DNA of 64,000 nucleotides from Gammaproteobacteria bacterium. Lineage in GTDB: Bacteria > Pseudomonadota > Gammaproteobacteria > SZUA-140. The stretch covers positions 12,300 through 76,299 of the forward strand of contig WFNO01000122.1 of the NCBI GenBank assembly GCA_015488555.1, written 5' to 3'. This document shows positions 13,495 through 34,088 of the stretch, in pieces. Numbering within the stretch: the stretch's first letter is position 1; every line of letters starts with the position of its first letter. The position numbers were made by a program, and so were the translations under genes. Under the pieces are notes generated by a model. That model saw only the letters and a list, made by a program, of their open reading frames with translations, was not told where the DNA came from and made no database searches.

Positions 13495-13497
13495 TCC

Positions 13498-15394: not shown

Positions 15395-15399
15395 CAAGG

Positions 15400-15539
15400 C
15401 TGTTGAGATTCTCCTCATGCGGCGCGATCCGGCGTTGAAAATGGCCTCGAAATGCTCTTTTGCAATAAACTTACGCTTTCTCGGCCATTTTCGCCTGGTC
15501 TCGCGCTCGCCCGAGCGAATTCCAAATTCCAACAGCCTG
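15400..15539. repeat. MITE-like palindromic repeat, copy 2 of 3, inserted between moxR and the DUF58 gene
   Basis: Aligns with 93..232 and 57048..57184. Carries a short internal insertion near its 3' end. Confidence 0.75.
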
Positions 15540-15546
15540 CTGAGCC

Positions 15547-16464: not shown

Positions 16465-16486
16465 CAGGCCTGGCCCATCGCTGTTC

Positions 16487-17023
16487 ATGAACACCCTCGC
16501 CGATGCCGCACCCGCCTTGCCCCCAGAATGGCTCGCCCGGCTGGCGGACATCGAGCCGCCGCCGCCCGCAGGGCTGGCCTGGCTCTGGACCCTGATCGCC
16601 GTGCTGCTCCTGTCCGGCCTGCTGGGGGGGGTGTGGCTGCTGCGCTCGCGGCGCCGGGCCGGGGCGCCGGCCGATCATTCCCCTGCTCATCCGCTGCAGT
16701 CGGAGACGCCAGAGGATCTCCAAAACGAGGCCCTCCGGCGTCTGGACCGCCTGGAACACCGATGGCGCCAGGGCCACTGCTCCTCGCGGGAGGCGGCCTA
16801 TCACCTGGCCGCCATCCTGCGCCGCGGCGCCGCCATCCCGTCAGAACGGTCAGAAGCGTGGGCGTACCTGCAACGCCGGCTGGACGAATTGCGCTATCCA
16901 CGCCGTCCGGCAGGCGAACTGGAACCGGAGCTGTTCGCGCGGGCCCGGGCCTTCCTGGAACCGCGGGTGGAGGATGCGGCCCGCAGCCGCCGGGAACGGG
17001 AGGCGGAGCAACCGCCCGCCTGA
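16487..17023 (+). CDS. DUF4381-like single-TM protein of the Bat operon
   Basis: One TM helix (LAWLWTLIAVLLLSGLLGGVWLL), then a charged coiled region. Sits between the DUF58 and BatA genes. Confidence 0.55.
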   Translation: MNTLADAAPALPPEWLARLADIEPPPPAGLAWLWTLIAVLLLSGLLGGVWLLRSRRRAGAPADHSPAHPLQSETPEDLQNEALRRLDRLEHRWRQGHCSSREAAYHLAAILRRGAAIPSERSEAWAYLQRRLDELRYPRRPAGELEPELFARARAFLEPRVEDAARSRREREAEQPPA

Positions 17024-17035
17024 GGACGTGCCGCC

Positions 17036-18049
17036 GTGTGGATCCTCGACCAACCGTACTGGTTGTTCCTGTTCCCCCTCCCCCTGCTGCTCTGGTGGTT
17101 GCTGCACAGGCGCACCGGCAATGTGCGCGGGGCTTCCCTGTACCATCCCCACGCCGAACTGATCGCGGACCTGGCCGCCGCTCGCGGTGCCACCGTCCAT
17201 GGCAGGACGTCGCTCCTCCCGCTGTCCTATCTCCTGGCCAGCCTGCTGTTCCTCCTCGCCCTCGCCCGCCCGCAATGGCTGGACTTCGAGGCCCCCGAGG
17301 CACGCCAGGGACATGAGTTGATGGTGGCCTTGGACGTCTCGGGCTCCATGCGGGCTCTGGACTTCAGCGAGGCGGGTGAAACCGGCGCACCGACTGCCAG
17401 CCGGCTGGGCGTGGTCCGATCCGCCCTCGACGATTTCCTTGCCGGGCGCCGCCACGACCGCATCGGCCTGGTGCTCTTCGGCGACAGCGCCGCCCTCTAC
17501 GTCCCCCTCACCACCGATCACCAGCTCCTCCGGGAGCTGCTCGCCGAAGTGCGGCCCGGTATGCTGGGTGAACGGACCGCCCTGGGCGATGCCGTGGCCC
17601 TGGCCGTGGACCGCCTGCGCCGCCGGCCCGAACCGAGCCGTCTGTTGATCCTGTTCAGTGACGGCGCCCACACGGCCGGTGACATCACCCCGGAGGAGGC
17701 CCTGGACCTGGCACGCCGCCACGGCGTGCGCATCTTCACGGTGGCCGTGGGCCGCGCGGAGAAAGTGCTCTTCCCGCGCGGCCCCGTGCTCGCGCCGGAA
17801 GTGACCGTGCTGCCGCCGGACACCGCGCTGCTCCAGCGCCTGGCGCGCGAGAGCGGCGGGCACTTCTATCGGGCCGAGTCGGCGTCGGACATGCAGCGCA
17901 TCCTGGACGATCTGAACGCCCGCGCCCCCACCGTGATCCGCGACCCGGAACGGGCGGTGCGCCACCAATGGTTCTTCCTGCCCGTGTTGGCCGGGCTCGC
18001 CCTCCTGCTCGCCGCCCGCTATCGGCTACAGTGGAGGACCGCGCCGTGA
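17036..18049 (+). CDS. VWA domain membrane protein (BatA-like)
   Basis: N-terminal TM, then MVALDVSGSMRALDF, the VWA MIDAS DxSxS motif. Confidence 0.85.
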   Translation: MWILDQPYWLFLFPLPLLLWWLLHRRTGNVRGASLYHPHAELIADLAAARGATVHGRTSLLPLSYLLASLLFLLALARPQWLDFEAPEARQGHELMVALDVSGSMRALDFSEAGETGAPTASRLGVVRSALDDFLAGRRHDRIGLVLFGDSAALYVPLTTDHQLLRELLAEVRPGMLGERTALGDAVALAVDRLRRRPEPSRLLILFSDGAHTAGDITPEEALDLARRHGVRIFTVAVGRAEKVLFPRGPVLAPEVTVLPPDTALLQRLARESGGHFYRAESASDMQRILDDLNARAPTVIRDPERAVRHQWFFLPVLAGLALLLAARYRLQWRTAP

Positions 18050-18054
18050 GCGGT

Positions 18055-19881
18055 ATGGAAGCGGCCGCCTTCACTGGAACCCTCACCTGGTCCCAACCCT
18101 GGTGGCTGCTGCTCCTGCCCCTGCCCTGGTGGCTGTACCGCCACGCCCGCCGCCGGGCGCAGCGGGAGCTGCGCGCGCTGGCGGCGCCGGTTCTGTGGCC
18201 GCTGCTCGTCCACTCGGCGGCCGGCCGCGTCCAGGCCAGGATCTCGGCGGGGCTGTTCGCGGCGGCCTGGGTCCTGGCACTGGTGGCGGCCAGCGGCCCT
18301 CAGCTTAGCTCCGGTTCCGACCCCGCGCAGGCGGCACCGGGACTGGCCGTGGACGTGGCGCTGGTGGTGGACGTCTCTCCCTCCATGGCGGCGCGGGACC
18401 TGCCACCTTCCCGCCTGCAGCGGGCGAAATTCGAGTTGCGCGACTTCATCACCGATGCGCGCGGCCTGCGCCTGTCCCTGGTGGCCTTCTCGGCCCAGGC
18501 CTATCGACTCCTGCCCCTCACCGGGGACCTGGACACCGTGGCCTATTTCGTGGACGCCCTGGACAGCGGCCTCACCCGCCGCCACGGCTCCAATCTCACC
18601 ATGGCCCTGGAACTGGCCGCCCGCACCCTGGAACGCAGCCCGCCGGACAGCCGCGCCATCCTGGTGCTGAGCGACGGCGAGGCCATGGATCCCGCCGCCG
18701 TGCGGGCGGCCGGCGAACGCCTGGGACGCAGGGGCATACCCGTGCTCGCCCTGGGTATAGGCACGCGGGCGGGAGCGCCGGTACGCGACCCCCTGGGGCG
18801 TTTCCTGTCCCGGGAGAAAGGCCCGGTGATCTCCCGCCTCGACGCCGATCTCCTGGAGGCATTGGCCCGCGCCAGCGGCGGGCGCTATGTCTCCCTCGCC
18901 GACGACGACCGAGACTGGGATGCTGTTTGGGAGGCTCTGGCGGCCTTGCGTCCTGCCCTGCGCCCGGGTACGGGACCGCTTCCTCAAGACCAGCCTCTCT
19001 ATGCCTATTTCCTGGTACCGGCCCTGATCCTCTTCCTGCTCCACCTCCTGGTCCCCATGCTCATCCCCAAGAGGACCGCCGACCGGATGCCAGGGTCTTC
19101 CTCCCGCGTAACCGCCGGCCCTTCGCCGGCACAGGGAAGAGGCCTGCCGCGAGCGGCAGTGACGGCTTCGGCCCTGGCCTGTGCGGCGCTGCTCCTGCCC
19201 GCCAGCCTCACGGCCCAGGCGCCGCTGCCAGTCGCGAGTGAGGAAGCGCTGCCGCTTCCCTCGCGCAAGGCCCCGCCCTTCCCCCTGCAGTCCTTTCACG
19301 CCTATCTGGGCGAGCGTGCCCTGCGGCGTGGAGACGCCTTGGGCGCGGCCCGCCACTATGCCCGCGCCGGCGGCTACGCGGGCGCCCTGGGCCTAGGGAC
19401 GGCGGCCTACCGCCTGGGCCACCTGGCACGCGCCCGCGAGGCCTTTGCAGCCGCCCTGGAATGGGCAGTCGACGATGCACAGCGGGCCCGGGCCGCCTAC
19501 GACCTGGGCACCACATTGTTGCGCGCAGGAGAGTGGGGGGCGGCCCGGGAGGCCCTGGAAGCGGCCCTGCGCTGGCAGCCCCAGCACAAGGGCGCCTGGC
19601 GCAATCTGCAGCTCCTCTCCGAACTCCGCCTGGGGGGCGACCCGCAGGAAGGAGAGGATGCGGAAAGCCCGGAGGACCAGGGGACCTTGCCGGGCGGAGC
19701 GGATACGAACGCAACGGGCAGCGGCGGCCAGCGGGGTGGGCCAGCCTCACCGCTCTGGCCCGGCCGCGGCCGGCAGTCCATGCCTGCCGCAGCGGGCGAT
19801 GCGGGCCCCCTGCTGCTGCGCCTGCGCATGGAGGCCCAGGAAGCCGCCCTGGAGGCCCTGCCGGTGGAGCGCCCATGGTGA
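18055..19881 (+). CDS. VWA + TPR protein (BatB/BatC-like)
   Basis: VALVVDVSPSMAARDL MIDAS motif and C-terminal TPR-like helices. Internal ATG at 18055 follows the BatA stop. Confidence 0.8.
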   Translation: MEAAAFTGTLTWSQPWWLLLLPLPWWLYRHARRRAQRELRALAAPVLWPLLVHSAAGRVQARISAGLFAAAWVLALVAASGPQLSSGSDPAQAAPGLAVDVALVVDVSPSMAARDLPPSRLQRAKFELRDFITDARGLRLSLVAFSAQAYRLLPLTGDLDTVAYFVDALDSGLTRRHGSNLTMALELAARTLERSPPDSRAILVLSDGEAMDPAAVRAAGERLGRRGIPVLALGIGTRAGAPVRDPLGRFLSREKGPVISRLDADLLEALARASGGRYVSLADDDRDWDAVWEALAALRPALRPGTGPLPQDQPLYAYFLVPALILFLLHLLVPMLIPKRTADRMPGSSSRVTAGPSPAQGRGLPRAAVTASALACAALLLPASLTAQAPLPVASEEALPLPSRKAPPFPLQSFHAYLGERALRRGDALGAARHYARAGGYAGALGLGTAAYRLGHLARAREAFAAALEWAVDDAQRARAAYDLGTTLLRAGEWGAAREALEAALRWQPQHKGAWRNLQLLSELRLGGDPQEGEDAESPEDQGTLPGGADTNATGSGGQRGGPASPLWPGRGRQSMPAAAGDAGPLLLRLRMEAQEAALEALPVERPW

Positions 19882-21647
19882 ACCGCCGTCGTTTCGGCCG
19901 GTACGGCCTGCGGCCCGATCTCCGGTGTCTTCTCTCCCTGACCCTGCTGGCCCTCGCCGCCCTGGTCCAGGATCCCACTCGGGAACTGGCGGCGGCCACC
20001 CTCACGGCCGAGGTGGACCGCCGCCAGCTCTACGTCCACGAGCCCCTGCTGTTCACGCTGAGGCTCACCGACAGCGACACGCGCCTGCGGGCCGAAGGGC
20101 TGGACCCCAACGTGGATCTGAGCCGGCTCACCCGCGACTTCGAGCTGGGCGTGCCCCGCAGCAGCCACCGTTACAACATCCATCGCAACCGCGGCCGTTC
20201 CACCTCGGAACTCCAGGTGCTGTTGTTTCCCAAGCGCGAAGGGGAGCTGGAGATTCCCGCCTTCACCGTGGAGGGATTGCACACGGCCCCCATTCCCATC
20301 CGGGTACTGCCCGCTCCCCCAGATCCCGCTCCCGAGGTCTTCGCCCGCAGCGGCGCCACCAAACGTACAGTATGGGTGGGGGAGCGGACCGTGGCCTACC
20401 TGGATCTCTATTACCGGGTGGCGCTGCGCAATGCCCGTCTGGGCGGATCTCTGGACACGGAACCCAAACGCCTGCGCCTGCGCCCGCTGCCGGACGAGGA
20501 ACGCCGCGAGACCCATGCCGGCTTGGAATACCGGGTCACGCGCACGGCCTGGAGCATCACCCCGGTGACCGCGCAACCCATCACCCTCCTGTTCCCGGAC
20601 GTGTGGGTGGAAACGGAAGCCGGGAAAAAGATCCGCCTGCCGTTCACGGACGACCGCCTCGAGGTGCGGCCGCTGCCCCCCGGCATTCCGCCGGACTTGC
20701 TGGTGGGACGCCCGCGCCTGAGCCAGGCCCTCTCCTCCGGCACCGCCACGGTCCACACCCCTCTGACATGGACCATCACCCTGGAAGCGGCGGTGGATCT
20801 GCTGGCCCTGCCCGAAAGCCTGGCGCTGGCCGAGACCCCGGGGATCAAACTCTACAGCAACCGCCCACAGCGACAATGGCGCCCTTCTCCCGACCCGGAA
20901 ACCGGCACGCCCCTGGCCACCGCTCGCTATGACATCACCGTCATTCCCCTGCGCGCAGGCGAGCTGGCCCTGCCAGCTCCCGTCATCCCCTACTTCGACC
21001 CCCAGACCCGGCGCCTGGAACGGGCTACCCTGCCTCCCCTCACGCTAACCGTGGCCGCCCCCTCCACACCCGCCGTGCCGCCAGACGCCGTGGAGGAGGA
21101 AAGGACACCGGATAACCTGGCCCAAGATCGAGACGGGAAAGGAACGGAAGAACGGGGCGGAGACACAACGGAAGACCGGAGAGACGAACTGTGGGCTGGA
21201 TTGGCAGCGCTCTTCGCACTGCTGTGGTTGGCCACCCTGTGGCTGTGGTGGCGGGCGCGCCGACAGCGCCCATCCCATGGAGCCGGCGACCCGACGCCCC
21301 CCTGGAACACCGACCCCCACCCCGCGGGCGATGGATCACCCTATGCGCGGCGCCTGTGCGTCGCCCTCGGTTCCTCCACCCTGGAAACCGGGCTGCAGCG
21401 CTGGGAGGCCCGTCACGGTCCCGATCCCGCTCTACGACGGCTGGTCGCCCAGGTCCAGTCCTTCCATTACGGCCCTCGCAAGGAGGAGATGGATGCAACC
21501 GCCATCGAGGCCGGCTTGCAGGATCTGGAACGCCGGATCCAAAACCGCACGGAAAAAGAGACGAGACATCCTGCCAGCGAAGAAGCGGCATCCGATCCCT
21601 GGCGGCCGGATCATTTCGGCCGCCGAGCATCTCCCCCTAGGGACTGA
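19875..21647 (+). CDS. BatD-like oxygen-tolerance family protein
   Basis: ATG at 19875 overlaps the previous stop (ATGGTGA). Signal peptide, a large periplasmic beta-rich domain, and a C-terminal TM (LWAGLAALFALLWLATLWLWW). Confidence 0.65.
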   Translation: MVNRRRFGRYGLRPDLRCLLSLTLLALAALVQDPTRELAAATLTAEVDRRQLYVHEPLLFTLRLTDSDTRLRAEGLDPNVDLSRLTRDFELGVPRSSHRYNIHRNRGRSTSELQVLLFPKREGELEIPAFTVEGLHTAPIPIRVLPAPPDPAPEVFARSGATKRTVWVGERTVAYLDLYYRVALRNARLGGSLDTEPKRLRLRPLPDEERRETHAGLEYRVTRTAWSITPVTAQPITLLFPDVWVETEAGKKIRLPFTDDRLEVRPLPPGIPPDLLVGRPRLSQALSSGTATVHTPLTWTITLEAAVDLLALPESLALAETPGIKLYSNRPQRQWRPSPDPETGTPLATARYDITVIPLRAGELALPAPVIPYFDPQTRRLERATLPPLTLTVAAPSTPAVPPDAVEEERTPDNLAQDRDGKGTEERGGDTTEDRRDELWAGLAALFALLWLATLWLWWRARRQRPSHGAGDPTPPWNTDPHPAGDGSPYARRLCVALGSSTLETGLQRWEARHGPDPALRRLVAQVQSFHYGPRKEEMDATAIEAGLQDLERRIQNRTEKETRHPASEEAASDPWRPDHFGRRASPPRD

Positions 21648-22662: not shown

Positions 22663-23370
22663 TCAGGGTCGAGGTGAGACTTTTCCGTTTGGTGTCGCCT
22701 CGACCGCAGCCCTGAGTAGCAGAAAATCCAGCACCGCCATCATCTCACCCACATTGCGCACCATGCCAGGATCCACGCGATAGCGCCCCTCTACAATGAT
22801 GGTGGGCGCCCCTCGGATCCCGTAGCGTCGACTCATGATGCGGGCTTGGCGCACTTTGCGGGCGGTGAACGAACTGCGCATAGCGGTACGAAAGGCTTGG
22901 GGATCAACGCCCTGTTCAATGAGAAAATCGGCCAGGGCTTGCTCGTCGTCCAGGCGCCGATGTTGGCGGTGAATGGCGGTATAGAGGTCGTCGTGTATGT
23001 CATCCAGCACTCCCAGGGCCTGAGCTGCATAGAAAACCTGGGCAAAGAAAGTCATATCCTCGTTGGTGATAGCAGGCATACGCCGGTAATGGATGACTGC
23101 CTGATTGCGCTCCCGCCATCGCCGCAGTTGAGGCTGGATGGCCAAACAGGTGCGGCATCCGAACCAGAGCAATTCCACCACTTCCACGCGTTCTCCTCCG
23201 CGAGTGGGCTGAGGAGGGGTCACCAGCTGATAGTGCACCCCAGCCATAAAGCCACTTTGGGATCCACTGCGAAGATCGCCGGTCGCAGCGGCGCCCGTCT
23301 GCGACCACAGCAAGAGGAAGAAAGTCAGGAGCAGGAGGTTTCCGCCGGACGGGGTCAAACTTCCTTGCAT
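22663..23370 (-). CDS. DsbA-family periplasmic thiol:disulfide oxidoreductase (atypical CRTC active site)
   Basis: Signal peptide. WFGCRTC CxxC in a DsbA-like frame, ending ...YGIRGAPTIIVEGRYRV. GGAGG RBS. Confidence 0.7.
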   Translation of the reverse strand: MQGSLTPSGGNLLLLTFFLLLWSQTGAAATGDLRSGSQSGFMAGVHYQLVTPPQPTRGGERVEVVELLWFGCRTCLAIQPQLRRWRERNQAVIHYRRMPAITNEDMTFFAQVFYAAQALGVLDDIHDDLYTAIHRQHRRLDDEQALADFLIEQGVDPQAFRTAMRSSFTARKVRQARIMSRRYGIRGAPTIIVEGRYRVDPGMVRNVGEMMAVLDFLLLRAAVEATPNGKVSPRP

Positions 23371-23417: not shown

Positions 23418-24131
23418 CTAGTGCAGTGATTGAACAGGCAGTTCCCGCTGGTCGGCAGCCGGAGCATCACGTGAGGGACTGTTACGCTCTTCCCAACGCT
23501 GTCCCTGTTCCGCCAGCCATTGTGCCTCTTCCGGTGGCCGCGGACCACGTTGTAGGCGATCCTCCCATTCCCATAGCGCGGCTCGAGCCCGCCGCACGTA
23601 GGGATCCCCGGGTGGTGCCAGATGGATGTAGGTGCGCATGGCCCCCAAGGCAGCCGGCAGATCGCCCTGGGCCTCGAACACCTCTGCCAGCCCCCAATAG
23701 GCATTACCCTTGTAAGGATCCAACTCGATGGCGTTGCGAAAAAAGGCTTCCGCCTCCTGGTAGCGCTGCAGGCCAAGCAATGCAAAGCCCATGTTGACAT
23801 GCGCATCGGTGAGCCGGGGCGAGAGGGCCAACACGCGGTGCAATGCAGTGGCGGCATATTCATAACGACCCGCGTGCAACATCATTACTGCCTGCTGAAA
23901 ACGCAGACGAATCTCGGCCATGCGCGGATCTTGGATCTCGTCGGCATCCATACCGCCTTCCAGCCTGCTCTCGGCGTTGACCTCCTGCCAGAGACCTTCG
24001 GGCATACGGCTGGACCACAAGGGGCTGTAATCCAACTTCATAGCCCCCGCAAGCATGCCAGTAGCCACGAGCATGACGGTCACCATGACCAAAGACAGGG
24101 CCGCCACGGTACGCTCGGGTAGCGCACTCAT
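23418..24131 (-). CDS. membrane-anchored TPR-repeat protein
   Basis: N-terminal TM, then TPR-like helices (AIELDPYKGNAYWGLAEVFEAQGDLPAAL). Its ATG overlaps the ccsA-like stop (ATGA). Confidence 0.7.
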   Translation of the reverse strand: MSALPERTVAALSLVMVTVMLVATGMLAGAMKLDYSPLWSSRMPEGLWQEVNAESRLEGGMDADEIQDPRMAEIRLRFQQAVMMLHAGRYEYAATALHRVLALSPRLTDAHVNMGFALLGLQRYQEAEAFFRNAIELDPYKGNAYWGLAEVFEAQGDLPAALGAMRTYIHLAPPGDPYVRRARAALWEWEDRLQRGPRPPEEAQWLAEQGQRWEERNSPSRDAPAADQRELPVQSLH

Positions 24132-25000
24132 CAGATCACCCCCTTGTGGGCTGCCTCACTGTAGAAAGGCGTGCCGAAATAAGTCAAAAAAGCAAAGACG
24201 AAGATGCCGATAATGGCCAACGCTCCCACGTGTATTGGAATGCGATAGCTGAGGCGGGCATGCAAGGCCGCCCCCAGGAACAACCAGTTGAGAAAGGATG
24301 AGGTCTCCAGTGCATCCCAGGCCCAGTAGCGGCCCCAGGCGTCCTGAGCCCATACGGCACCCGCGATGAGCATCAAACTGTCGAAGATAAGCGCCAACAA
24401 CATGAAACGCCAAGCCATATGGTCCAGCACCTTGTCCGGTGGCAAGTGACGGAAGAAAGGCGCCACCCTGGGAATACGCCTCAAGAGAATGACACCGGCC
24501 AACCCCGAGCCTATCAGGCAAAAGGCCAGAAAGAATTTGCCGAACCCCACGTGCGCCCAAAGCCATTCGTTGTAGTAGGTAGGGGGATAGTGACTGTCCG
24601 AAGGCTCCAAGAGTAACACCCAGGTGCCCAGCACCCAGAGCATGGGCAACACCACCACCGCCGTAGGACGCAGCACCGGCAGACGCCAGTAGGCGACAGC
24701 ATATATCAATCCCAGGCTGAACAACTGACTGATAAGCAATTCGAAGAGGTTGACGAAGGGTCCATGACCGAGGCGTAACCAGCGCTCTGCCAGGGACGCA
24801 GTAAGCAAGATCACCCCACCGGTAAGTAGGGCCAGGACCAAGGACTCGTGGCTGCGGTTCACGGCTGCCCCAGCATCCCCCCCGCGGGTGCGAACGAGGC
24901 CGTAGAAAGCAGACAAGGTCGCCAGTGCATAGGCCACCAGTCCCGTATAGAGCCAGGGAAGTTCAGTAAAAACCGTTGCTTCGCTCATTTCGTTCATCAT
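24131..25000 (-). CDS. System II cytochrome c biogenesis protein CcsA/ResC-like (haem-handling W-rich membrane protein)
   Basis: WAQDAWGRYWAWDALE tryptophan-rich motif, flanking His residues, multi-TM. The ORF's N-terminal extension is rejected. ATG at 25000 overlaps the ResB-like stop. Confidence 0.85.
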   Translation of the reverse strand: MMNEMSEATVFTELPWLYTGLVAYALATLSAFYGLVRTRGGDAGAAVNRSHESLVLALLTGGVILLTASLAERWLRLGHGPFVNLFELLISQLFSLGLIYAVAYWRLPVLRPTAVVVLPMLWVLGTWVLLLEPSDSHYPPTYYNEWLWAHVGFGKFFLAFCLIGSGLAGVILLRRIPRVAPFFRHLPPDKVLDHMAWRFMLLALIFDSLMLIAGAVWAQDAWGRYWAWDALETSSFLNWLFLGAALHARLSYRIPIHVGALAIIGIFVFAFLTYFGTPFYSEAAHKGVI

Positions 25001-26034
25001 AGCTTGCCTCCGCCCCATGGTGCCGTTTCCAGTTCCGGTTCCGCGCCCTTGCGTGAGACTTCCCCGGCCTGGGGCCAGGGATGAGTGGCAAACTTGTTCC
25101 AGAAATAGGCCGCCAAACCCAGCACCCCAATGACGGCCGTGAGGAACAGCCACTGGAGAGTGGGGTCGTAGAACAGTTTGTACCCCATCCAACTGCTCAA
25201 GCCCTCGTAACGCAGCACGCCACCTGGTAGAGCCGTTGCCTGCCCCGGTAGCAATTCCTCTCGCTGTTCTCCACTGCGTAACACCAATATTCCGTGTGCC
25301 TTGCTTGGATCCAGGGTCCAAGCTTGATCCGCCTTGAGACCGGTCTCCAATTGCAACCAGAACTTGACCTCCTCCCCACCGGGAGGAGTCCACCGATTGG
25401 CCTGGCGAAAGTCGAACAGGGGATAGGAAGGCATGTGGATGGTGCCGGTCACCGGCTCTCCAGTTTCCGGGATCCAGGTAAGCACCGCAGCAAAACCTTT
25501 ATTGAATGTGGTATAAAAACGATAGCCCTCCAGTACTAGAGGTGTGTCGTCCCCCACCACGCGTCGTTCCCATCCACCCTGACCGTCAGGCACCAGCACG
25601 TGACTACGGGTGGGTCCGCGCATCATGCCTGGTCCATAATCCACCGTGAAAGGCCCCTGCACGAAGACCACCTTCTCCAACTCGCCACGATGCCAGGGGC
25701 CTTTGCGCACGTTCATGAGTTCGGCCGGATCGAAAGTACTGCCTTCCACCATCTCGATATGCGCCTCCATGTGGGTGAGGCGACCAATGGCAGCCAATAT
25801 CACAATTCCCAACAAGGAAAGATGAAAGATCAAGAGTCCAGGACGGCGGTTGATCCGGGCATTGCTCATCACCGCCGCCAGCAGATTGACGGCCAGCAAG
25901 GCCATGGGAGCCACCAACGCCCAGACGGGGGTATCCACGGGATTGTCGTAGCTGAGGGCGGCCCCCACGGCCAGCAGGGCCATGCCCAGCAAGGTGAAAC
26001 GGGTGGAGGAAAGGCGCCTCAACAAAGCGGTCAT
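24997..26034 (-). CDS. ResB/CcsB-like cytochrome c biogenesis protein (short form)
   Basis: ResB-like N-terminus (LRRLSSTRFTLLGMALLAVGAALS), TM His (LIFHLSLLGIVIL), a periplasmic domain and a C-terminal TM. Lies immediately upstream of the ccsA-like gene. Confidence 0.7.
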   Translation of the reverse strand: MTALLRRLSSTRFTLLGMALLAVGAALSYDNPVDTPVWALVAPMALLAVNLLAAVMSNARINRRPGLLIFHLSLLGIVILAAIGRLTHMEAHIEMVEGSTFDPAELMNVRKGPWHRGELEKVVFVQGPFTVDYGPGMMRGPTRSHVLVPDGQGGWERRVVGDDTPLVLEGYRFYTTFNKGFAAVLTWIPETGEPVTGTIHMPSYPLFDFRQANRWTPPGGEEVKFWLQLETGLKADQAWTLDPSKAHGILVLRSGEQREELLPGQATALPGGVLRYEGLSSWMGYKLFYDPTLQWLFLTAVIGVLGLAAYFWNKFATHPWPQAGEVSRKGAEPELETAPWGGGKL

Positions 26035-28715
26035 GGTGGATTCACACAGGCTTCGGAACTACCCAACATCCAGGTGGCACCATTGAAACCATTGCCGGGT
26101 GCCCCAGCCGAACCGCAATTGGCCTGGGTCCATTCCCCGCTGCGGGCGAACTTGCGCACCTTGAGCACAGCACCGTTGTAATACGGACCATTGTAATAAC
26201 GCGCAGTGGTGTGATTGCGCACTTGCCGGCTGCTGGCATCCCCTGCTCCGGCTGGTTCACCAGCGAGCAGCGGCGCTTCCAACCCCACGTCGTTGAGATT
26301 GGCCAGGAACACTTTGTTCTTCCACCCATGGGGAATGGCGATGTGACAGAAGGTACAGCTGAAATCAGTCACCCTGCCGGCATGCCCCACGTGCAGATTG
26401 ATGTTCCTAAAATCAAGGCAGCCGACATTCACTCCAATGTTGGTGCTGAACCCGCTACTCAGCACAGAGGCATCAGGAAACGAGGCATCACCACGGCCAT
26501 ATTGATCGTATTCGTGGCATTTGAAACAGAGATGATTGAACGGTCCCGGGGGACGCGCCTCACCAGTCTTGTCGTCCCAGTCGCCCTTGAGCAAGAAGTT
26601 GTGGTCAGAACCGTGTGGCCCCCAGGGGTAACCGTTCTCGTCATTGGGCACCACTGTCTCCGGCGCGGTGGATGAGCCGTGACAGTCGGTACAATACATG
26701 GTCTGAGTACCCACCGCGACATTGAAGGGCGAAAGCCAGTCATCGGCATTCGCCTTGCGCACCTGGGGCGTGCGCCCGGTGGGTTTGACCACTGGATGCC
26801 AGGAGCGGTGATTGTCCGTCACCCAGTTCACACAATTGCCGTCCTTGTCCCGATAGGCCGGTACCGTACCGCCCGTCTCCACCGTGGAATCCGGCTCATT
26901 GGGATCGATGAGCATGGTACATTCGCCCACGCTGCCAGCGAAAGCTCCCGTCGGCGTAACAGGCGTGCCTTCTCCCATGTGGTCGTCGGGCGACTGGAAT
27001 TCCATGGCCTGGTTGGTGTACTGGAAGAGGGCGTTGGTACCTGGCGGCGTACCACCCACAAAGGAACCCAGCATGGGCGGTTGATCATAGGTGTAGTTGG
27101 AATGGCACTTGAAACAGAGTTGGTACTCGCGGGTGAGATAGGGTGCGCTGACATCGGTGCTGCCGCCCGTACCGGGATCGCCGCGTTTCACCTCGAAAGT
27201 CACCGGCTCGCTGCCGAATTCGGTGGAACCGTAGACAGGCTCCACGCCCCAGATGCCCCGCAATACCCCGGAAGCCAGATTGGTATGCGGCACGCCATCT
27301 TCGTGCAGATGGGTACCGGCGGGATCGGGCACGGTACTGTCCGCGTTGAACAGGCGGTTACGCGTCACCCGATGGGGATTGTGGCAATCGGTGCACTCGA
27401 CATGGCGATTGTTGAGATTGCCCTTACCCAAGTTCTCCGGCGCCTCGATGAAATCCTGCCCCCGCCGGTCTCCTTGGGTTGCCGTGCTGCCCGTACCGAT
27501 GCTGTGCACCTCGGTACCTGCGGGCTGATCCGAGCTGGCGATTGGCATTCGCCGCGCCATGGTGGTGAAATCGGTCTTAATGTCCGGCACCTCGAAAGAG
27601 AAATTAGTACTGGGATTGACCTGCCCCTGCAGTGTGTTGCCGTCGGCGGAATGGCAGGCATAACATACTTCTTCCACCGCTGGATTGCCGCCCTGTTTAT
27701 AGCGGGCGCCGTCCGCCGTGGTGAACACGGGGCCATCGGTACCCTCTCTGAGTAAGCGCCTTGCTCCCTGAACTGTGTGGGGATCGTGGCAGTTGAGACA
27801 AGCAGCCTGCCAAACGCGCAGATCACGGGGAAATTCGCGGAGATCGGCAGCGGCATCCGTATAACGTTCGTCGGCCACGGCGGGATGGGCGTGCGCCGAC
27901 CCCACCCAGCCGTCTTTATCGTGACAGGCCAGACAAATGATGTCGTTGTCACGATCGAAACGCCCATCCACCGGCTCTTGTTTCTGGAAGCGGTTGACGC
28001 GCAGGAACTTGATGTTCTCTCCGGGCACATCGGAACGCAGGTGCGGATCATGACATGTGATACATTCCACCTTGCCATCCTCCAAAGGCAGATAATCTCC
28101 CTGCGGAGCGGCCGGCGGGCTGCCACGGGTGCGCTCGTTGATGTGGGCCACCACTGCCGGATCGAACAATTCTCCATCCCGAGCCGCCTGACTGCTGTCA
28201 TAGGTAAAAGAAATAGGATGGTCGTTGCTCAGATCCACTCCCAGGCGACGCGTAAAGCCAGTGGTTTCCCCCAACCCTTCGGGAATGGTGCCATCGGCCT
28301 TGGTGCCGGTGAAGGGAATGTTGGGATTCTCGATACGATTGAGCACGTTGACCGCGCCCAGGGCAATGGTGCCGTCATGACAGGACAGGCACAGTTTGGA
28401 TTTTCCGCCTGGCTGCCCCAGATCCGTGGCATCCAGCGATGTAGAACTGAAGGGAATATAGGTGGCGGAAGACAGCTGGCGGTTCCACAGGGGTGCCGCC
28501 TGTTCCGGTGTGGCACCGTGGGGAGTGTGGCAAAAGGCACAGATCTGGGATTCACTGCTGGCGTGGGCCTGGCGTTCAACCCCTTGAGGAACGACGGTGG
28601 CGGAGAAATTGTGCTTGGTATTGCTGATGTCGGAGATGATGTCCGCCCAGACCACCCCAGGCCACGGCAACAACATCCACACTAAGCCCACCGCCAACAC
28701 CCACGGACGCTTCAT
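26031..28715 (-). CDS. secreted undecahaem c-type cytochrome (~895 aa) with an N-terminal doubled-CXXCH module
   Basis: Eleven CxxCH motifs counted (CAFCH, CLSCH, CITCH, CLACH, CLNCH, CYACH, CTDCH, CFKCH, CTDCH, CFKCH, CTFCH). Signal peptide MKRPWVLAVGLVWMLLPWPGVVWA. The N-terminus NTKHNFS...CAFCHTPHG...PLWN...CLSCHDGT is paralogous to the start of 37730..38566. Confidence 0.88.
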   Translation of the reverse strand: MKRPWVLAVGLVWMLLPWPGVVWADIISDISNTKHNFSATVVPQGVERQAHASSESQICAFCHTPHGATPEQAAPLWNRQLSSATYIPFSSTSLDATDLGQPGGKSKLCLSCHDGTIALGAVNVLNRIENPNIPFTGTKADGTIPEGLGETTGFTRRLGVDLSNDHPISFTYDSSQAARDGELFDPAVVAHINERTRGSPPAAPQGDYLPLEDGKVECITCHDPHLRSDVPGENIKFLRVNRFQKQEPVDGRFDRDNDIICLACHDKDGWVGSAHAHPAVADERYTDAAADLREFPRDLRVWQAACLNCHDPHTVQGARRLLREGTDGPVFTTADGARYKQGGNPAVEEVCYACHSADGNTLQGQVNPSTNFSFEVPDIKTDFTTMARRMPIASSDQPAGTEVHSIGTGSTATQGDRRGQDFIEAPENLGKGNLNNRHVECTDCHNPHRVTRNRLFNADSTVPDPAGTHLHEDGVPHTNLASGVLRGIWGVEPVYGSTEFGSEPVTFEVKRGDPGTGGSTDVSAPYLTREYQLCFKCHSNYTYDQPPMLGSFVGGTPPGTNALFQYTNQAMEFQSPDDHMGEGTPVTPTGAFAGSVGECTMLIDPNEPDSTVETGGTVPAYRDKDGNCVNWVTDNHRSWHPVVKPTGRTPQVRKANADDWLSPFNVAVGTQTMYCTDCHGSSTAPETVVPNDENGYPWGPHGSDHNFLLKGDWDDKTGEARPPGPFNHLCFKCHEYDQYGRGDASFPDASVLSSGFSTNIGVNVGCLDFRNINLHVGHAGRVTDFSCTFCHIAIPHGWKNKVFLANLNDVGLEAPLLAGEPAGAGDASSRQVRNHTTARYYNGPYYNGAVLKVRKFARSGEWTQANCGSAGAPGNGFNGATWMLGSSEACVNPP

Positions 28716-29794
28716 GATTCCCCCCAGTCCCTCAAGTACTCGAATATCATCACGCGACCGTTGAAGGCATCGGCCACATAGACCCACCCGCGGTGGTCGG
28801 TCCACACACCCGCAGGCAGATAAAACTGCCCAATGCCATTACCCGTCCCGCCGATCGGCAGCAGGAACTCCCCTTTCTCATTGAATATTAACAGATGATC
28901 GTAATAGGATTCCACCACGTACAGATTGCGGTCCTGATCAACGGCCACGCCCTTGGGACGCGGCAGATCGCCAAGATAGAGCCCGCGGCGACCTACACTA
29001 CGCACGAAACGCCCCTCACGATCGAAGACTTGCACCCGGGAATTGAGAGTGTCTGTCACATAGAGTCTTCCGTCGGCGAAGGTCAAGTAAGTAGGAGCAT
29101 TGAATTCTCCCGGCCCATGTCCTCGCCGCCCCCAAGTAGCCACCAAAACACCGTCCCGGTCGAAGACCTTCACGTCGTGGGCCTTGCTGTCCGCCACGTA
29201 GATGAGTCCACTCACCGGATCGCGGGCCACGCCCACGGGACGCTGCAGAACGCCTTCCCCCATGCTGCCCTGGGGCTTGCCCTGCTCGTTCAAGATCACC
29301 ACGCGCCGCAGGTCCGCGTCTGCGACAAGTATGTATCCCGGCTCACCCGCCGTCACACCCAAAGGCGTGAGAAAATGCAAATTTGCTCCGGCCTCCTCCC
29401 AGATCTGCAGACCGTCTTTCGGATCGAAGACGTATACCGCTGCTCGGCTCACATCACTGACATAGATCCGCCCACGCGCATCGGTATACCCCCCCTGCGG
29501 GCGCTGCAGGACACGCGGGCTATGCGGTCCTGTAGCCAAGCCCACCAGCCAAGCCAATACCTTGCGACCGACAGCGGTCCGTTGGCCACGGTAATTTTCC
29601 TCGCCGGTCAATTGTCCCATGTAGCGATAGCGAGGGCGCTCAGGTGGCGGTGGCCACACCGGCGGGGCATCGTCCAGCTCATCAAATCGCAAAGCAGAAC
29701 TGGGGCCGCCGGCACACCCTCCGGCCAATATCAGGACCACCACCATGAAACCGGCAGCCACACCCCGCGTCAGAGAGGCAAGACGGCAAGACAT
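28712..29794 (-). CDS. NHL-repeat six-bladed beta-propeller lipoprotein
   Basis: Lipobox LAGGC. Repeated blades of the form G-F-x-x-P-x-G-V-A-V-D-x-x-x-x-L/I-Y-V-x-D, with an NHL/N(S)R-V-Q-V-F motif recognisable in at least one blade. ATG overlaps the upstream stop (ATGA). Confidence 0.8.
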   Translation of the reverse strand: MSCRLASLTRGVAAGFMVVVLILAGGCAGGPSSALRFDELDDAPPVWPPPPERPRYRYMGQLTGEENYRGQRTAVGRKVLAWLVGLATGPHSPRVLQRPQGGYTDARGRIYVSDVSRAAVYVFDPKDGLQIWEEAGANLHFLTPLGVTAGEPGYILVADADLRRVVILNEQGKPQGSMGEGVLQRPVGVARDPVSGLIYVADSKAHDVKVFDRDGVLVATWGRRGHGPGEFNAPTYLTFADGRLYVTDTLNSRVQVFDREGRFVRSVGRRGLYLGDLPRPKGVAVDQDRNLYVVESYYDHLLIFNEKGEFLLPIGGTGNGIGQFYLPAGVWTDHRGWVYVADAFNGRVMIFEYLRDWGES

Positions 29795-30807
29795 CACTGC
29801 ACGCGTGGCGTTTCCGCCCGTTCTAGATTTTGGCGTGTAGCCTCTAGAACCTGGATGCGACCATTCATGGCATCGGCCACGTAGAGCAGGCCACCTTCCA
29901 GCCAAAGATCGGCAACGCGCTTGAACTGTCCGGGCGCAGTTCCGGAACGTCCCACAGAAAAACGGTAATGAGTGCCCTCGAAGACCCGGATGGTGTCGGT
30001 GAGATAATCGCCGACATAGGCCCAGCCGCGGGCATCCACGACGATGGAAGTGGGAAAAATCACCGTATCCTTCTCGAAAGACGCGAGAGGACCGCCGTCA
30101 GGCGCTATCACCTGAACCCGGGATTCTCCATAACGTGTGGCCACATAATAGCCTTCCGGCCCTAGGGCGAAGGCAGTGACGCCACGAAAACGCCCCGGGC
30201 CTTCTCCGCGCTCTCCGATGGCACCGCTGAGCAACCCCGCCCGGTTGTAGACCAGCACGTCGTCGTTGAAACCATCTGCGATGTACAAGGTACTGGTGGC
30301 CTCGTCCACCACCACGGCCACCGGCCGCCCCAGGTTGATGCGGTCCTCATAGACACGAATCAGGCGGTCGTCGCGGTCGAAATACAAGACCCGGCCACCG
30401 TCGAAATCGGCTAGATAATAGGAAAGATCGGAAGCCACGTAGATATCGGACACCGTACCGCTTACCAAGCGGCGCAAATCCTGAAGGATACGCAATTCTC
30501 CGCGGTCCCGACGATAGAGCAACACCTGTTCCAGGCCTTCGTCCACGATGTACACCGCAGGCCCGCGAGCAGCTACGGCCACGGGGCGGACGAGCCGCAC
30601 ATATTCCAATCCCGTGAGCAGATTACCGCCTCGCATTCCACCATCGATCACTTCCCATACCACAGGCTGTGTGCCAAGGGCACTTCCCGCGGCATCTCCG
30701 GAAGCGGGCACGGAACCCGGCTTCATAGCGCCGCAGCCGGCGGCAAACAGGAAAGCCGCTACGGCGATCAGCGCAACAATCTCGTTTCGTTGGGAACAGA
30801 ATGACAT
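29794..30807 (-). CDS. NHL-repeat beta-propeller lipoprotein (paralog)
   Basis: Lipobox LFAAGC. Blades YIADGFNDDVLVYN and LYVADAMNGRIQVL. Start 30807 overlaps the upstream cytochrome by about 40 nt, so it is somewhat uncertain. Confidence 0.72.
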   Translation of the reverse strand: MSFCSQRNEIVALIAVAAFLFAAGCGAMKPGSVPASGDAAGSALGTQPVVWEVIDGGMRGGNLLTGLEYVRLVRPVAVAARGPAVYIVDEGLEQVLLYRRDRGELRILQDLRRLVSGTVSDIYVASDLSYYLADFDGGRVLYFDRDDRLIRVYEDRINLGRPVAVVVDEATSTLYIADGFNDDVLVYNRAGLLSGAIGERGEGPGRFRGVTAFALGPEGYYVATRYGESRVQVIAPDGGPLASFEKDTVIFPTSIVVDARGWAYVGDYLTDTIRVFEGTHYRFSVGRSGTAPGQFKRVADLWLEGGLLYVADAMNGRIQVLEATRQNLERAETPRVQ

Positions 30808-31415
30808 CGGCCGCAATTCATGGTGGGGGGAAAGGCCACGTTCCCGTGACAGACTCCGCAATACTCTCCCTGGATGATGGCAGACATGGAAACGGGATTG
30901 GCGCCCTTCTGGGGAATAAAGATGAGCGGATGGCAATTGGCACAGGTCAGCCACTCGGTGTGCTGGCGGTGCGGGAAACGCACGTGCGGCATGGAGGCGG
31001 TGTCCTTGAAAATGATATCGAAGTCCACTGGAAACATATCTCCCTCACCGTCCACGGACTTGCGGGGATCAATGAGCCCCATCTCCAGAGTCTTGACCCA
31101 GTCGATGATACCCTGGGAATCACGTGGAAAATTGGCCATGGCTTCGTAGGGTTGCTGCAACACCGCCACTGCCTCACTCGCAGGATCGTGAATGCCATCC
31201 TCAGCGATGGGCACGATGTCGCCTGTCAACTGAAAGTGCTTGCCGCGCGACCAGAACGGCTTAGCCACATCGGCCGGATTCTGCAAGAGCTGCGGGGTCT
31301 TGGCTGGCGTGGCGGCCATGGCTATCGGCCATACCGGAAGGAAAATGGCGAGACACACGGCCCACAAGAGCCTCAAACCGCCGCTCACTCGTTTTCCACT
31401 TTGGCACCCGTTCAT
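30768..31415 (-). CDS. periplasmic trihaem c-type cytochrome (family A)
   Basis: CANCH, CGVCH and CGRCH, signal peptide. Paralog of 33399..34064, sharing DGIHD...FPHRQHTEWL.C.NCHP.IFIPQKGAN...CGVCHG.VAFP. Confidence 0.8.
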   Translation of the reverse strand: MNGCQSGKRVSGGLRLLWAVCLAIFLPVWPIAMAATPAKTPQLLQNPADVAKPFWSRGKHFQLTGDIVPIAEDGIHDPASEAVAVLQQPYEAMANFPRDSQGIIDWVKTLEMGLIDPRKSVDGEGDMFPVDFDIIFKDTASMPHVRFPHRQHTEWLTCANCHPLIFIPQKGANPVSMSAIIQGEYCGVCHGNVAFPPTMNCGRCHSVPNETRLLR

Positions 31416-33279: not shown

Positions 33280-33398
33280 GATCACTCTCATTAGTATCGA
33301 ATGCTACTGCCGCAGCCCTACTGCTGTCTCAATCCATACCCACACGCCGCTCGGCCTTTTATTTTGATCAAGACAAACGATGATGTTGCTCCCCAGGT

Positions 33399-34064: not shown

Positions 34065-34088
34065 GGCACTCTCCCCAATCTATCTTTC

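What the first reader, a model, noticed from the sequence alone, without database searches (positions are those of the whole stretch)
24131..26034. Dedicated System II (ResB/CcsA-like) haem-attachment pair next to the 11-haem cytochrome, in a genome segment that also carries complete System I (ccmABCDEFGHI)
A complete System I operon is 10 kb upstream in the same window (6926..14130). Carrying an extra CcsBA-like pair, translationally coupled (ATGATGA) to a giant multihaem cytochrome, resembles the specialised lyases NrfEFG and Wolinella CcsA1, which handle unusual haem sites. I scanned the 11-haem protein for CX15CH, CXXXCH and CXXCK motifs and found only canonical CXXCH. The reason for a private maturation system is therefore unexplained and may relate to haem load, localisation or an unrecognised motif.
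Basis: partly seen in the sequence, partly recalled or inferred. Interest (0 to 1): 0.72.

Follow-up and report, generated by a model that had tools for sequence, protein, structure and literature searches.

The report
Private haem-attachment genes of Uet cluster
The two genes are a real, divergent haem-attachment (System II) pair that always travels with the "Uet" multihaem cytochrome cluster of electricity- and iron-eating bacteria; this arrangement, including its coexistence with System I, was already described in 2022, but its function is still untested.

Summary
Window 24997-26034 (-) encodes a short ResB/CcsB-like protein and 24131-25000 (-) a CcsA-like protein. Both overlap their neighbours by ATGA or TGATG, downstream of an 894-aa cytochrome with 11 canonical CXXCH. 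A complete ccmABCDEFGHI lies at 6926-14130.

The region is the published uet cluster: uetA-J, ccsAB, an nrfG-like TPR gene, batABD and type-I ccm (Eddie et al. 2022, bioRxiv 10.1101/2022.05.06.490989). That paper already notes the extra type-II system beside type I and proposes that it matures Uet cytochromes.

What I add:
- All four catalytic His and the WWD domain are invariant.
- The CcsA lies outside the housekeeping CcsA equivalog (104 bits against a cutoff of 187.6), in its own clade.
- The family-specific motifs match at least 585 stretches in a one-genome-per-species collection.
- ccsB-ccsA-TPR is almost always fused to a Uet cluster (60/61 close loci, 34/36 distant loci).
- No Uet cytochrome has a non-canonical haem motif (0 of 120 UetJ homologues).

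The best reading is a co-inherited, co-expressed maturation sub-module, not a lyase for an odd haem site.

The parts
24997..26034 (-). ccsB/resB-like gene (345 aa). It has four TM helices and a beta-rich periplasmic domain of about 200 residues. His71 in TM3 ('LLIFHLSLLG') is invariant and is the candidate TM-His1.
24131..25000 (-). ccsA-like gene (289 aa). The WWD domain is 'WAQDAWGRYWAWDALETS'. His150 is P-His1, His247 is TM-His2 and His285 is P-His2. The protein ends 'AAHKGVI'.
   Evidence: PF01578 85.6 bits. TIGR03144 104.4 bits, below the 187.6 cutoff. Residues are invariant in 24 sequences. Aligns to H. hepaticus CcsBA residues 669-897 with the His residues and WWD in register.
23418..24131 (-). 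Membrane-anchored TPR protein (237 aa; 'NrfG' in Eddie et al.). Its start overlaps the ccsA stop by 1 nt.
   Evidence: Pfam TPR families. N-terminal hydrophobic helix read from the sequence. Present after ccsA in 51/51 close loci and 37/40 distant loci. Only weak similarity to the window's CcmI.
22663..23370 (-). DsbA-like periplasmic thiol-disulfide oxidoreductase with a CRTC motif. A lineage-variable accessory gene.
   Evidence: PF01323 54.6 bits. Present in 16/51 close loci.
26031..28715 (-). uetJ, the undecahaem cytochrome (894 aa, 11 CXXCH). Its stop overlaps the ccsB start (ATGA).
   Evidence: 117 of 120 homologues have exactly 11 CXXCH and none has another motif type.
28712..30807 (-). 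uetI and uetH, two NHL-repeat beta-propeller proteins.
   Evidence: Pfam NHL and DUF5128. Called genes in L001.
30768..31415 (-). uetG, a c7-type trihaem cytochrome.
   Evidence: Cytochrome_C7 and TIGR04257. 3 CXXCH.
31549..33291 (-). uetF, a large protein described as cupredoxin-like in the literature.
   Evidence: Position and homology in the loci. No significant family hit here. The name comes from Eddie et al..
33399..34553 (-). uetE and uetD, c7-type trihaem cytochromes.
   Evidence: TIGR04257 hit for 33399-34064. 3 CXXCH each. Cytochrome_C7 on the called genes.
34726..39127 (-). uetC (putative porin, 34726-36543), uetB (PPIase, 36559-37650) and uetA (tetrahaem cytochrome, 37730-39127).
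   Evidence: Rotamase/SurA_N for uetB and Paired_CXXCH for uetA. 4 CXXCH in uetA. uetC is assigned by position and tblastn synteny only.
14438..21647 (+). bat-type operon: MoxR AAA, DUF58, DUF4381, BatA, BatB and BatD. It lies between the uet-ccsBA module and ccm and is GC-rich.
   Evidence: Called genes and Pfam in L001. GC 0.66-0.73 against about 0.60 in the flanks.
6926..14130 (-). Complete System I, ccmABCDEFGHI.
   Evidence: NCBIfam. ccmD read directly from the sequence.
6263..6913 (-). TlpA/ResA-like thioredoxin downstream of ccmI.
   Evidence: NCBIfam NF047696 and NF002854, both below their cutoffs.

Best explanation
The pair is the ccsB-ccsA part of a three-gene maturation sub-module (ccsB-ccsA-TPR, here followed by a DsbA-like gene). 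This sub-module forms the 3' end of the uet (undecahaem electron transfer) cluster, a putative outer-membrane and extracellular electron-uptake system of Tenderiales-like Gammaproteobacteria.

Shown:
- The genes are intact and overlap in the pattern typical of translational coupling, running from at least uetH through uetJ to the TPR gene.
- They keep every residue that defines a System II haem exporter/cytochrome c synthase.
- They are co-inherited with Uet cytochrome genes across deep divergence.

Inferred mechanism:
- CcsB His71 and CcsA His247 take up haem at the membrane site.
- Haem moves to the periplasmic WWD site, where His150 and His285 ligate it.
- It is then attached to the canonical CXXCH sites of the Sec-exported Uet apocytochromes (24 sites in this window: UetJ 11, UetA 4, UetD/E/G 3 each).
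- The membrane-anchored TPR protein acts as an apocytochrome-holding partner.

Why a private system exists is most likely not an unusual haem motif. More likely it supplies synthase capacity that is co-regulated with a very haem-rich operon, and it makes the module self-contained. The cluster also carries its own PPIase, a DsbA-like gene or redoxin, and a porin.
For: Identity of the locus:
- Gene content and order match the published uet cluster gene for gene (searches compared).

Intact catalytic apparatus:
- H79, H150, H247, H285 and the WWD residues are invariant in 24 CcsA-like sequences that are 65-81% identical to the window protein.
- They are in register with H. hepaticus CcsBA 7S9Y residues 669-897.
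- CcsB H71 is invariant in 32 sequences.

Coupling:
- ATGA overlaps at uetJ/ccsB and ccsB/ccsA, and a TGATG overlap at ccsA/TPR.

Dedication to the Uet cluster:
- Among 80 species-representative genomes, ResB-like is adjacent in 76/76 testable loci, TPR in 51/51, UetJ in 58/61 and any Uet gene in 60/61.
- In a clade only 38-55% identical, the figures are 53/59, 37/40, 31/36 and 34/36.
- Starting instead from UetJ homologues, the trio is again found at the end of the array, including after four tandem UetJ copies.
- CcsA-like divergence tracks ResB-like (r=0.91, n=132) and UetJ (r=0.90, n=97).

Not the housekeeping enzyme:
- The window protein scores 104 bits on TIGR03144, and relatives with the same C-terminus score 114-148. 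Canonical 'GLHSY' CcsA proteins score 238-299 against the cutoff of 187.6.
- The family forms a separate clade in an NJ tree.
- A complete System I sits in the same window and in 23 of the 160 related loci.
Against: - No experiment exists for any Uet-type CcsBA, here or in the literature read.
- System I alone matures large multihaem cytochromes with canonical motifs in other bacteria (general knowledge, for example Shewanella; see also PMC6976685). Nothing in the substrate demands a second system.
- The ResB-like protein matches Pfam ResB over only about 115 residues. It has no NCBIfam hit and no sequence-level PDB hit.
- The TPR protein is not demonstrably an NrfG/CcmI orthologue (TPR_CcmH_CycH 17.4 bits against a cutoff of 42; weak BLASTP match).
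- No CcdA/ResA-type reductant gene is in the window's operon.
- A few loci carry the trio with no visible Uet gene (L069, L144; L074 and L080 on short contigs).
- The correlation of divergence could partly reflect shared species phylogeny.
- The NJ tree has no support values.
Confidence: 0.62

Rival explanations
1. Specialised lyase for a non-canonical or otherwise 'difficult' haem site, working like NrfEFG or NrfI (CXXCK) or CcsA1/SirEFG (CX15CH).
For: The pair is adjacent and translationally coupled to its presumed substrate and has a TPR partner, as with NrfG. The CcsA is divergent, with 'WDALE' in place of 'WD(P/S)KE' and a distinct C-terminus.
Against: UetJ has 11 canonical CXXCH and no other CH dipeptide. 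0 of 120 UetJ homologues have CX3CH, CX4CH, CXXCK or CX11-17CH. UetA, UetD, UetE and UetG are all canonical. The trio persists in clusters that lack UetJ (L076, L086, L134).
Confidence: 0.1
2. Redundant baggage: a generic System II synthase carried with a mobile EET module. It is functional but interchangeable with the host's Ccm system and has no specific role.
For: Eddie et al. cite evidence that maturation systems are transferred horizontally with EET modules. The cluster carries several of its own biogenesis helpers (PPIase, DsbA-like or redoxin). Uet is reported in Gallionella and Leptothrix as well as Gammaproteobacteria.
Against: A truly redundant gene pair would be lost often. It is instead retained in about 95% of testable Uet loci with all catalytic residues invariant, across UetJ divergence down to about 38% identity. 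Most of these loci also have ccm close by.
Confidence: 0.17
3. Not a synthase. Instead the pair is a haem-binding inner-membrane component of the electron path, or a haem-delivery device for another membrane protein. It would link periplasmic Uet cytochromes to the inner membrane.
For: The published Uet model has no dedicated inner-membrane partner. In the distant clade a COX1-like membrane protein is inserted between ccsA and the TPR gene (L089). CcsBA-type proteins bind haem at a transmembrane His pair (PMC6299221, listed; otherwise general knowledge).
Against: The periplasmic WWD domain and both P-His ligands are strictly conserved, and these are the features needed for attachment chemistry. 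No redox-partner domains are present. No precedent is known to me.
Confidence: 0.06
4. It is simply the organism's housekeeping System II, and its position next to the cytochrome is incidental.
For: Public annotation calls homologues 'cytochrome c biogenesis protein CcsA/ResB'.
Against: A complete System I is in the same window. The CcsA scores far below the housekeeping equivalog cutoff. Synteny with Uet genes holds in 60/61 and 34/36 testable loci.
Confidence: 0.03

Closest known systems
ccsAB-nrfG of the uet cluster of 'Candidatus Tenderia electrophaga' and related orders (Eddie et al. 2022, bioRxiv 10.1101/2022.05.06.490989)
   Same: The gene order is the same: uetA-J, then the two type-II maturation genes, a TPR gene, batD/B/A, a type-I ccm operon and a second cytochrome/regulator cluster. 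UetJ has 11 CXXCH in both. The coexistence with System I is the same. The paper proposes that CcsAB plus the TPR protein mature Uet cytochromes.
   Different: This window comes from a different, hydrothermal gammaproteobacterial MAG. Its CcsA is about 65-66% identical to those of 'Ca. Tenderia sp.' MAGs L049 and L054. It has a DsbA-like gene and a LuxR-type response regulator inserted between the TPR gene and batD, an arrangement seen in only 16/51 close loci.
Helicobacter hepaticus CcsBA (PDB 7S9Y/7S9Z), the structurally solved System II haem exporter/cytochrome c synthase
   Same: The WWD domain, P-His1, TM-His2 and P-His2 align in register. The ResB-like model's best PDB match is this protein.
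   Different: Here the enzyme is split into two polypeptides. The CcsB part is short (345 aa, with a periplasmic domain of about 200 residues). The CcsA ends four residues after P-His2 with 'HKGVI' instead of 'HSY'. The WWD domain reads 'WDALETS' instead of 'WDSKETW'. Sequence similarity is low (41 bits), and the ResB-like part shows no sequence-level match.
Dedicated haem lyases NrfEFG (E. coli), NrfI and CcsA1 (Wolinella succinogenes) and SirEFG (Shewanella)
   Same: The lyase genes sit next to the gene of a multihaem substrate. NrfG and SirG are TPR partners. A second lyase coexists with a general one. (General knowledge; PMC6976685 and PMC12285233 are listed.)
   Different: Those lyases serve CXXCK or CX15CH sites, and no such site exists in any Uet cytochrome. 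NrfEFG and SirEFG are System I-type, whereas this pair is System II-type. The TPR protein here does not reach the NrfG/CcmI family thresholds.
Housekeeping split System II (ResB/ResC of Bacillus; CcsB/CcsA of cyanobacteria, plastids and Bordetella)
   Same: The architecture is the same: two adjacent genes, the 4-TM ResB-type gene first and the WWD-bearing CcsA-type gene second.
   Different: Canonical CcsA proteins pass TIGR03144 (238-299 bits), but this one does not (104 bits). ResB/CcsB proteins are typically much longer (from memory). No ResA/CcdA genes lie alongside. This pair is tied to one operon rather than serving the whole cytochrome complement.

Membership tests
System II (CcsBA / ResBC) cytochrome c synthase | CcsA-type subunit with a tryptophan-rich WWD domain | tested here: met
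   'WAQDAWGRYWAWDALETS' is invariant or nearly so in 24 sequences. It aligns to the WWD domain of 7S9Y. PF01578 scores 85.6 bits.
System II (CcsBA / ResBC) cytochrome c synthase | Two periplasmic His (P-His1, P-His2) flanking WWD, and a TM His (TM-His2) in CcsA | tested here: met
   H150, H285 and H247 are invariant. They are in register with the His residues of H. hepaticus CcsBA in 'HVS', 'LHLRF' and 'GMH' at position 897. The names and numbering of those residues come from the literature and my memory.
System II (CcsBA / ResBC) cytochrome c synthase | Adjacent ResB/CcsB-type subunit carrying a conserved TM His (TM-His1) | tested here: met
System II (CcsBA / ResBC) cytochrome c synthase | Equivalog-level similarity to housekeeping CcsA (NCBIfam TIGR03144 cutoff) and a ResB model hit | tested here: not met
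   TIGR03144 scores 104.4 bits against the cutoff of 187.6. No NCBIfam family matches the ResB-like protein. Canonical controls score 238-299 bits.
System II (CcsBA / ResBC) cytochrome c synthase | Associated thiol-reduction partners (CcdA/DsbD and ResA/CcsX) | tested here: inconclusive
   None is in the window's operon, which has a DsbA-like gene instead. CcmG and a TlpA-like protein lie by the ccm operon. In L170 a redoxin follows the TPR gene. The rest of the genome was not available.
System II (CcsBA / ResBC) cytochrome c synthase | Haem export and covalent attachment activity | not testable with these tools
   This needs expression in a Δccm host or genetics in a Uet-bearing organism.
Specialised lyases for non-canonical haem sites (NrfEFG, NrfI, CcsA1, SirEFG) | Cognate substrate has a non-CXXCH site (CXXCK, CX15CH and similar) | tested here: not met
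   UetJ has only 11 CXXCH. 0 of 120 homologues carry another motif. UetA, UetD, UetE and UetG are canonical.
Specialised lyases for non-canonical haem sites (NrfEFG, NrfI, CcsA1, SirEFG) | NrfG/CcmI-type TPR specificity factor | tested here: inconclusive
   A TPR protein is always present. However, TPR_CcmH_CycH scores only 17.4 bits against a cutoff of 42. The NCBIfam NrfG model hits the window's CcmI, not this protein. BLASTP against CcmI gives E 5e-4 over 51 residues.
uet cluster (Eddie et al. 2022) | Gene order uetA (4 haems), B (PPIase), C (porin), D/E (3 haems each), F, G (3 haems), H/I (NHL), J (11 haems), then ccsB/ccsA, TPR, bat and type-I ccm | tested here: met
   for the window. for the published description. 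The same order is seen in 80 species genomes.

The most novel reading that the evidence does not exclude
The Uet-type ccsB-ccsA-TPR trio may be a distinct, biochemically uncharacterised branch of System II. Its features are a minimal CcsB of about 340 aa, a CcsA with a 'WDALE' WWD variant that ends at P-His2 ('PF.S..HKG'), and an obligatory membrane-anchored TPR partner. That would make it a hybrid of a System II synthase with a System I-style TPR chaperone. On this reading it has real substrate specificity for long, wire-like extracellular multihaem cytochromes that Ccm handles poorly, for example through processive loading of 11-44 haems or coupling to secretion. Its family-specific motifs match at least 585 stretches in a one-genome-per-species collection, often beside the ccm operon as part of a 'cytochrome island'.
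Probability: 0.3. Interest if true: 0.55.

Novelty: already known. Interest (0 to 1): 0.3.

Why it matters
Uet is one of the few candidate pathways for direct electron uptake from cathodes and minerals. It has been reported in Tenderiales and also in Gallionella and Leptothrix iron oxidisers. None of these organisms is easy to manipulate, so heterologous reconstruction is the realistic route. Knowing whether UetJ needs its own CcsBA-TPR module, or matures with Ccm alone, decides how that reconstruction must be built. A System II synthase with an obligatory TPR partner and a minimal CcsB would also be a useful natural variant for work on how CcsBA recognises apocytochromes. The basic observation, however, is published and only its function remains open.

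Tried and rejected
- The first alignment of distant CcsA relatives (A3) was too divergent to seed the metagenome scan. A narrower one (A4) worked.
- The promoter/terminator scan of 21400-33600 gave no more sites than shuffled sequence and did not define operon ends.
- The afdb50 fold library was unavailable, so I could not identify a cultured carrier of the short CcsB.
- The exact-cluster look-up gave no informative names.
- The main text of the 'Ca. Tenderia' metatranscriptome paper says nothing about expression of the ccs genes.
- Unusual haem motif: rejected.
- Housekeeping System II placed there by chance: rejected.
- Decaying pseudogenes: rejected, because the catalytic residues are invariant.
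- A truncated ResB specific to this MAG: rejected, because the whole family is about 326-368 aa.
- I did not determine whether the rest of the source genome carries another System II or a CcdA/DsbD.
Full report
**Observation**

On the minus strand, 24997-26034 encodes a 345-aa protein that matches Pfam ResB. The score is 48.6 bits against a gathering score of 24.6, but only HMM positions 150-265 of 486 are matched. 24131-25000 encodes a 289-aa protein that matches Cytochrom_C_asm at 85.6 bits. NCBIfam places the second protein nearest the System II CcsA model TIGR03144, at 104.4 bits, well under its 187.6-bit cutoff. NCBIfam gives no hit for the first protein.

The upstream 894-aa ORF (26031-28715) has exactly 11 CXXCH and no CX3CH, CX4CH, CXXCK or CXnCH. 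Its only CH dipeptides are those eleven.

ccmA, B, C, E, F, G, H and I are recognised at 6926-14130, and ccmD is readable between ccmC and ccmE. System I is therefore complete. A local HMM scan of all six frames finds no other ResB-like or CcsA-like ORF in the window besides CcmC and CcmF.

One detail needs correcting. The cytochrome/ResB junction is a 4-nt ATGA overlap. The ATGATGA string is at the ResB/CcsA junction. The CcsA stop also overlaps the start of a third gene, a TPR protein at 23418-24131.

**What the locus is**

The neighbours, reading upstream to downstream on the minus strand, are:
- a tetrahaem cytochrome
- a PPIase
- a putative porin
- two c7-type trihaem cytochromes
- a large unassigned protein
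- a third trihaem cytochrome
- two NHL propellers
- the undecahaem cytochrome
- the ResB-like and CcsA-like genes
- a membrane-anchored TPR protein
- a DsbA-like protein and a LuxR-type response regulator
- on the opposite strand, a BatD/BatB/BatA/DUF4381/DUF58/MoxR operon
- the ccm operon
- a cytochrome/regulator cluster

This is, gene for gene, the uet cluster of 'Candidatus Tenderia electrophaga' and neighbouring orders. Eddie et al. name uetABCDEFGHIJ and count the downstream 'ccsAB, nrfG and batABD' as part of the module. They note that a ten-gene type-I maturation pathway follows. [quoted passage not shown]

Uet clusters have since been reported in Gallionella (PMC10734462) and Leptothrix (PMC13386937). 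None of the papers I read reports an experiment on the ccs genes.

The window itself occurs identically in hydrothermal-deposit metagenomes and in two gammaproteobacterial MAGs, GCA_027018575.1 and GCA_026997555.1.

**Is the pair an intact System II synthase?**

In 24 CcsA-like sequences that are 65-81% identical to the window protein, H79, H150, H247, H285 and the WWD stretch 'WAQDAWGR(Y)W.WD.LETS' are invariant or nearly so. phmmer aligns the protein to residues 669-897 of H. hepaticus CcsBA (7S9Y). In that alignment H150, the WWD domain, H247 and H285 fall in register with the P-His1, WWD, TM-His2 and P-His2 positions of the solved enzyme.

The ResB-like family is uniformly short. Members are 272-368 aa and nearly all are 326-368, so this is not a truncation in this MAG. 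A His in the third TM helix (H71, 'F-H') is invariant in 32 sequences.

Sequence searches against PDB fail for this protein. An AlphaFold2 model built with 32 homologues is confident: pLDDT 86.1, four TM helices and a beta-rich periplasmic domain of about 200 residues. Its best PDB matches are CcsBA:
- Foldseek: 7S9Y at probability 1.00 and 7S9Z at 0.99, followed by CcmF.

The defining sequence and fold features of System II are therefore present. Activity itself cannot be tested here.

**How it relates to housekeeping CcsA**

An exhaustive phmmer search of 1.84 billion cluster representatives gave 32 proteins at E ≤ 1e-30 and 455 at E ≤ 1e-10.

The Uet-type proteins, together with relatives down to about 35-45% identity, share a C-terminus 'G.PF.S..(A/P)HKG..' that stops four residues after P-His2. 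Canonical CcsA proteins end in 'GLHSY'. In an NJ tree without support values, the Uet type is nested inside the 'HKG' clade. It is separated from the 'GLHSY' clade, which contains the H. hepaticus enzyme.

NCBIfam scores agree with this split against the TIGR03144 cutoff of 187.6 bits:
- four 'GLHSY' representatives: 238-299 bits
- two intermediate representatives: 161 and 202 bits
- four 'HKG' representatives: 114-148 bits
- the window protein: 104 bits

The protein is a member of the System II superfamily but not of the housekeeping equivalog.

**Is it dedicated to the cytochrome cluster?**

The best 80 are all gammaproteobacterial MAGs, including 'Ca. Tenderia sp.'.

I ran tblastn with the window's proteins against two sets of 80 loci. 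One was this close set. The other was 80 metagenome loci retrieved with a query from the distant 'WDPLE/HKG' clade, 38-55% identical to the first query sequence. Counts are over loci with enough flanking DNA to test each feature:

| Feature | Close set | Distant set |
|---|---|---|
| ResB-like gene adjacent | 76/76 | 53/59 |
| TPR gene downstream | 51/51 | 37/40 |
| UetJ homologue | 58/61 | 31/36 |
| Any Uet cytochrome or NHL gene | 60/61 | 34/36 |

Starting instead from UetJ homologues, the trio again sits at the 3' end of the array. In L170 it follows four tandem UetJ paralogues and is followed by a redoxin and ccmABCDEF.

CcsA-like divergence tracks ResB-like divergence (r = 0.91, n = 132) and UetJ divergence (r = 0.90, n = 97). 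Shared species phylogeny may contribute to this correlation.

The exceptions are informative:
- L076, L086 and L134 have uetB-I but no uetJ, yet keep ccsB-ccsA-TPR. The accessory therefore belongs to the cluster, not to the undecahaem protein alone.
- A few loci show the trio without a visible Uet gene: L069 and L144, plus L074 and L080 on short contigs. L069, L074 and L144 have a divergently transcribed dihaem protein nearby.

ccmC or ccmF homologues lie in 23 of the 160 loci, often immediately after the TPR gene. Coexistence with System I is the rule where it can be seen.

**Why a private system?**

The unusual-site explanation can be set aside:
- 117 of 120 UetJ homologues have exactly 11 CXXCH.
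- None has CX3CH, CX4CH, CXXCK or CX11-17CH.
- UetA (4), UetD, UetE and UetG (3 each) are canonical.

The TPR protein is always present, but I cannot show it is an NrfG/CcmI orthologue.

The most likely reading is a working CcsB-CcsA synthase with a TPR partner, transcribed and translated together with a very haem-rich operon (24 sites here, up to 44 in UetJ alone in L170). It would supply co-regulated maturation capacity and make the module self-contained. The cluster also carries its own PPIase, a DsbA-like gene or redoxin, and a porin. I put this at about 0.6.

The rivals are:
- interchangeable baggage of a mobile module (0.17)
- hidden substrate specificity (0.10)
- a non-synthase haem or electron role in the inner membrane (0.06)
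- an incidental housekeeping System II (0.03)

**Verdict**

The interpretation of a dedicated pair is supported at the genomic level.

The arrangement and the question it raises are already in the literature, so the novelty class is 'already known'.
- residue-level and structure-level confirmation
- evidence that the Uet-type CcsA, short CcsB and TPR form a distinct, widespread and tightly co-inherited branch of System II
- exclusion of a non-canonical haem motif

Function remains untested. The decisive experiment is maturation of UetJ in a Δccm host with and without the trio.

Noticed in passing
window 14438-21647 (+ strand): The bat-type operon between the uet-ccsBA-TPR module and ccm has GC 0.66-0.73, against about 0.59-0.61 on both sides. 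In other lineages ccm follows the TPR gene directly (L170, L089, L073, L076, L081, L083-L086). The bat operon therefore looks like an insertion into an ancestral uet-ccsBA-TPR-ccm 'cytochrome island'.
   Followed up: partly
window 26031-28715 (UetJ residues C867 and C890 in 894-aa numbering): Besides the 22 haem cysteines, a C-terminal Cys pair ('NCGS…EAC', 23 residues apart) is invariant in 30/30 aligned homologues. It is probably a disulfide loop. A DsbA-like gene follows the TPR gene here and in 16/51 close loci.
   Followed up: partly
L170 1478-14325; L169 643-14364: Some Uet clusters carry three or four tandem UetJ paralogues interleaved with lactonase-type 7-bladed propeller proteins. 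In L170 the ccsB-ccsA-TPR trio, a redoxin and ccmABCDEF follow the last copy.
   Followed up: partly
L076, L086, L134 (about 650-11000): These Uet clusters have uetB-I but no undecahaem uetJ, and still retain ccsB-ccsA-TPR, followed by ccmC/ccmF.
   Followed up: partly
L089 10806-12200: In the distant 'WDPLE' clade a 464-aa COX1-like membrane protein lies between ccsA and the TPR gene (PF00115 34.5 bits, just under the gathering score of 34.8). ccmF-G-H-I follow immediately.
   Followed up: no
L075, L079, L081, L083, L085 (between UetJ and ResB-like): An extra protein of about 725 aa is inserted between uetJ and ccsB in one sub-lineage. The L083 copy matches the Lactonase double-propeller family (PF10282) at 274.6 bits; the other four were recognised only by size and position.
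   Followed up: partly
L069 91-2775: An 894-aa ORF, the same length as UetJ, has no CXXCH and no Pfam hit. It lies upstream of a ccsB-ccsA-TPR trio that has no recognisable Uet genes.
   Followed up: no
window 336-2897 (-), 3134-5807 (-): A HAMP-PAS-GGDEF-EAL protein with one CXXCH and two 'two-component regulator propeller' proteins lie downstream of ccm. They match the 'secondary cytochrome/regulator cluster' described for Ca. Tenderia.
   Followed up: no
L103 19685-20761; L106 19678-20745; L128 11466-12476: A second, more canonical CcsA-family ORF (C-terminus '…GLHAFG' or '…GLHAGG', 336-358 aa) lies after ccmI or after the TPR gene in some distant loci. It could be a YpjD-like protein or a further haem-handling paralogue.
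   Followed up: no
window 38949-40103 (-): A Gram-negative porin (Porin_4, 69 bits) is encoded immediately upstream of uetA, in addition to the putative UetC barrel.
   Followed up: no
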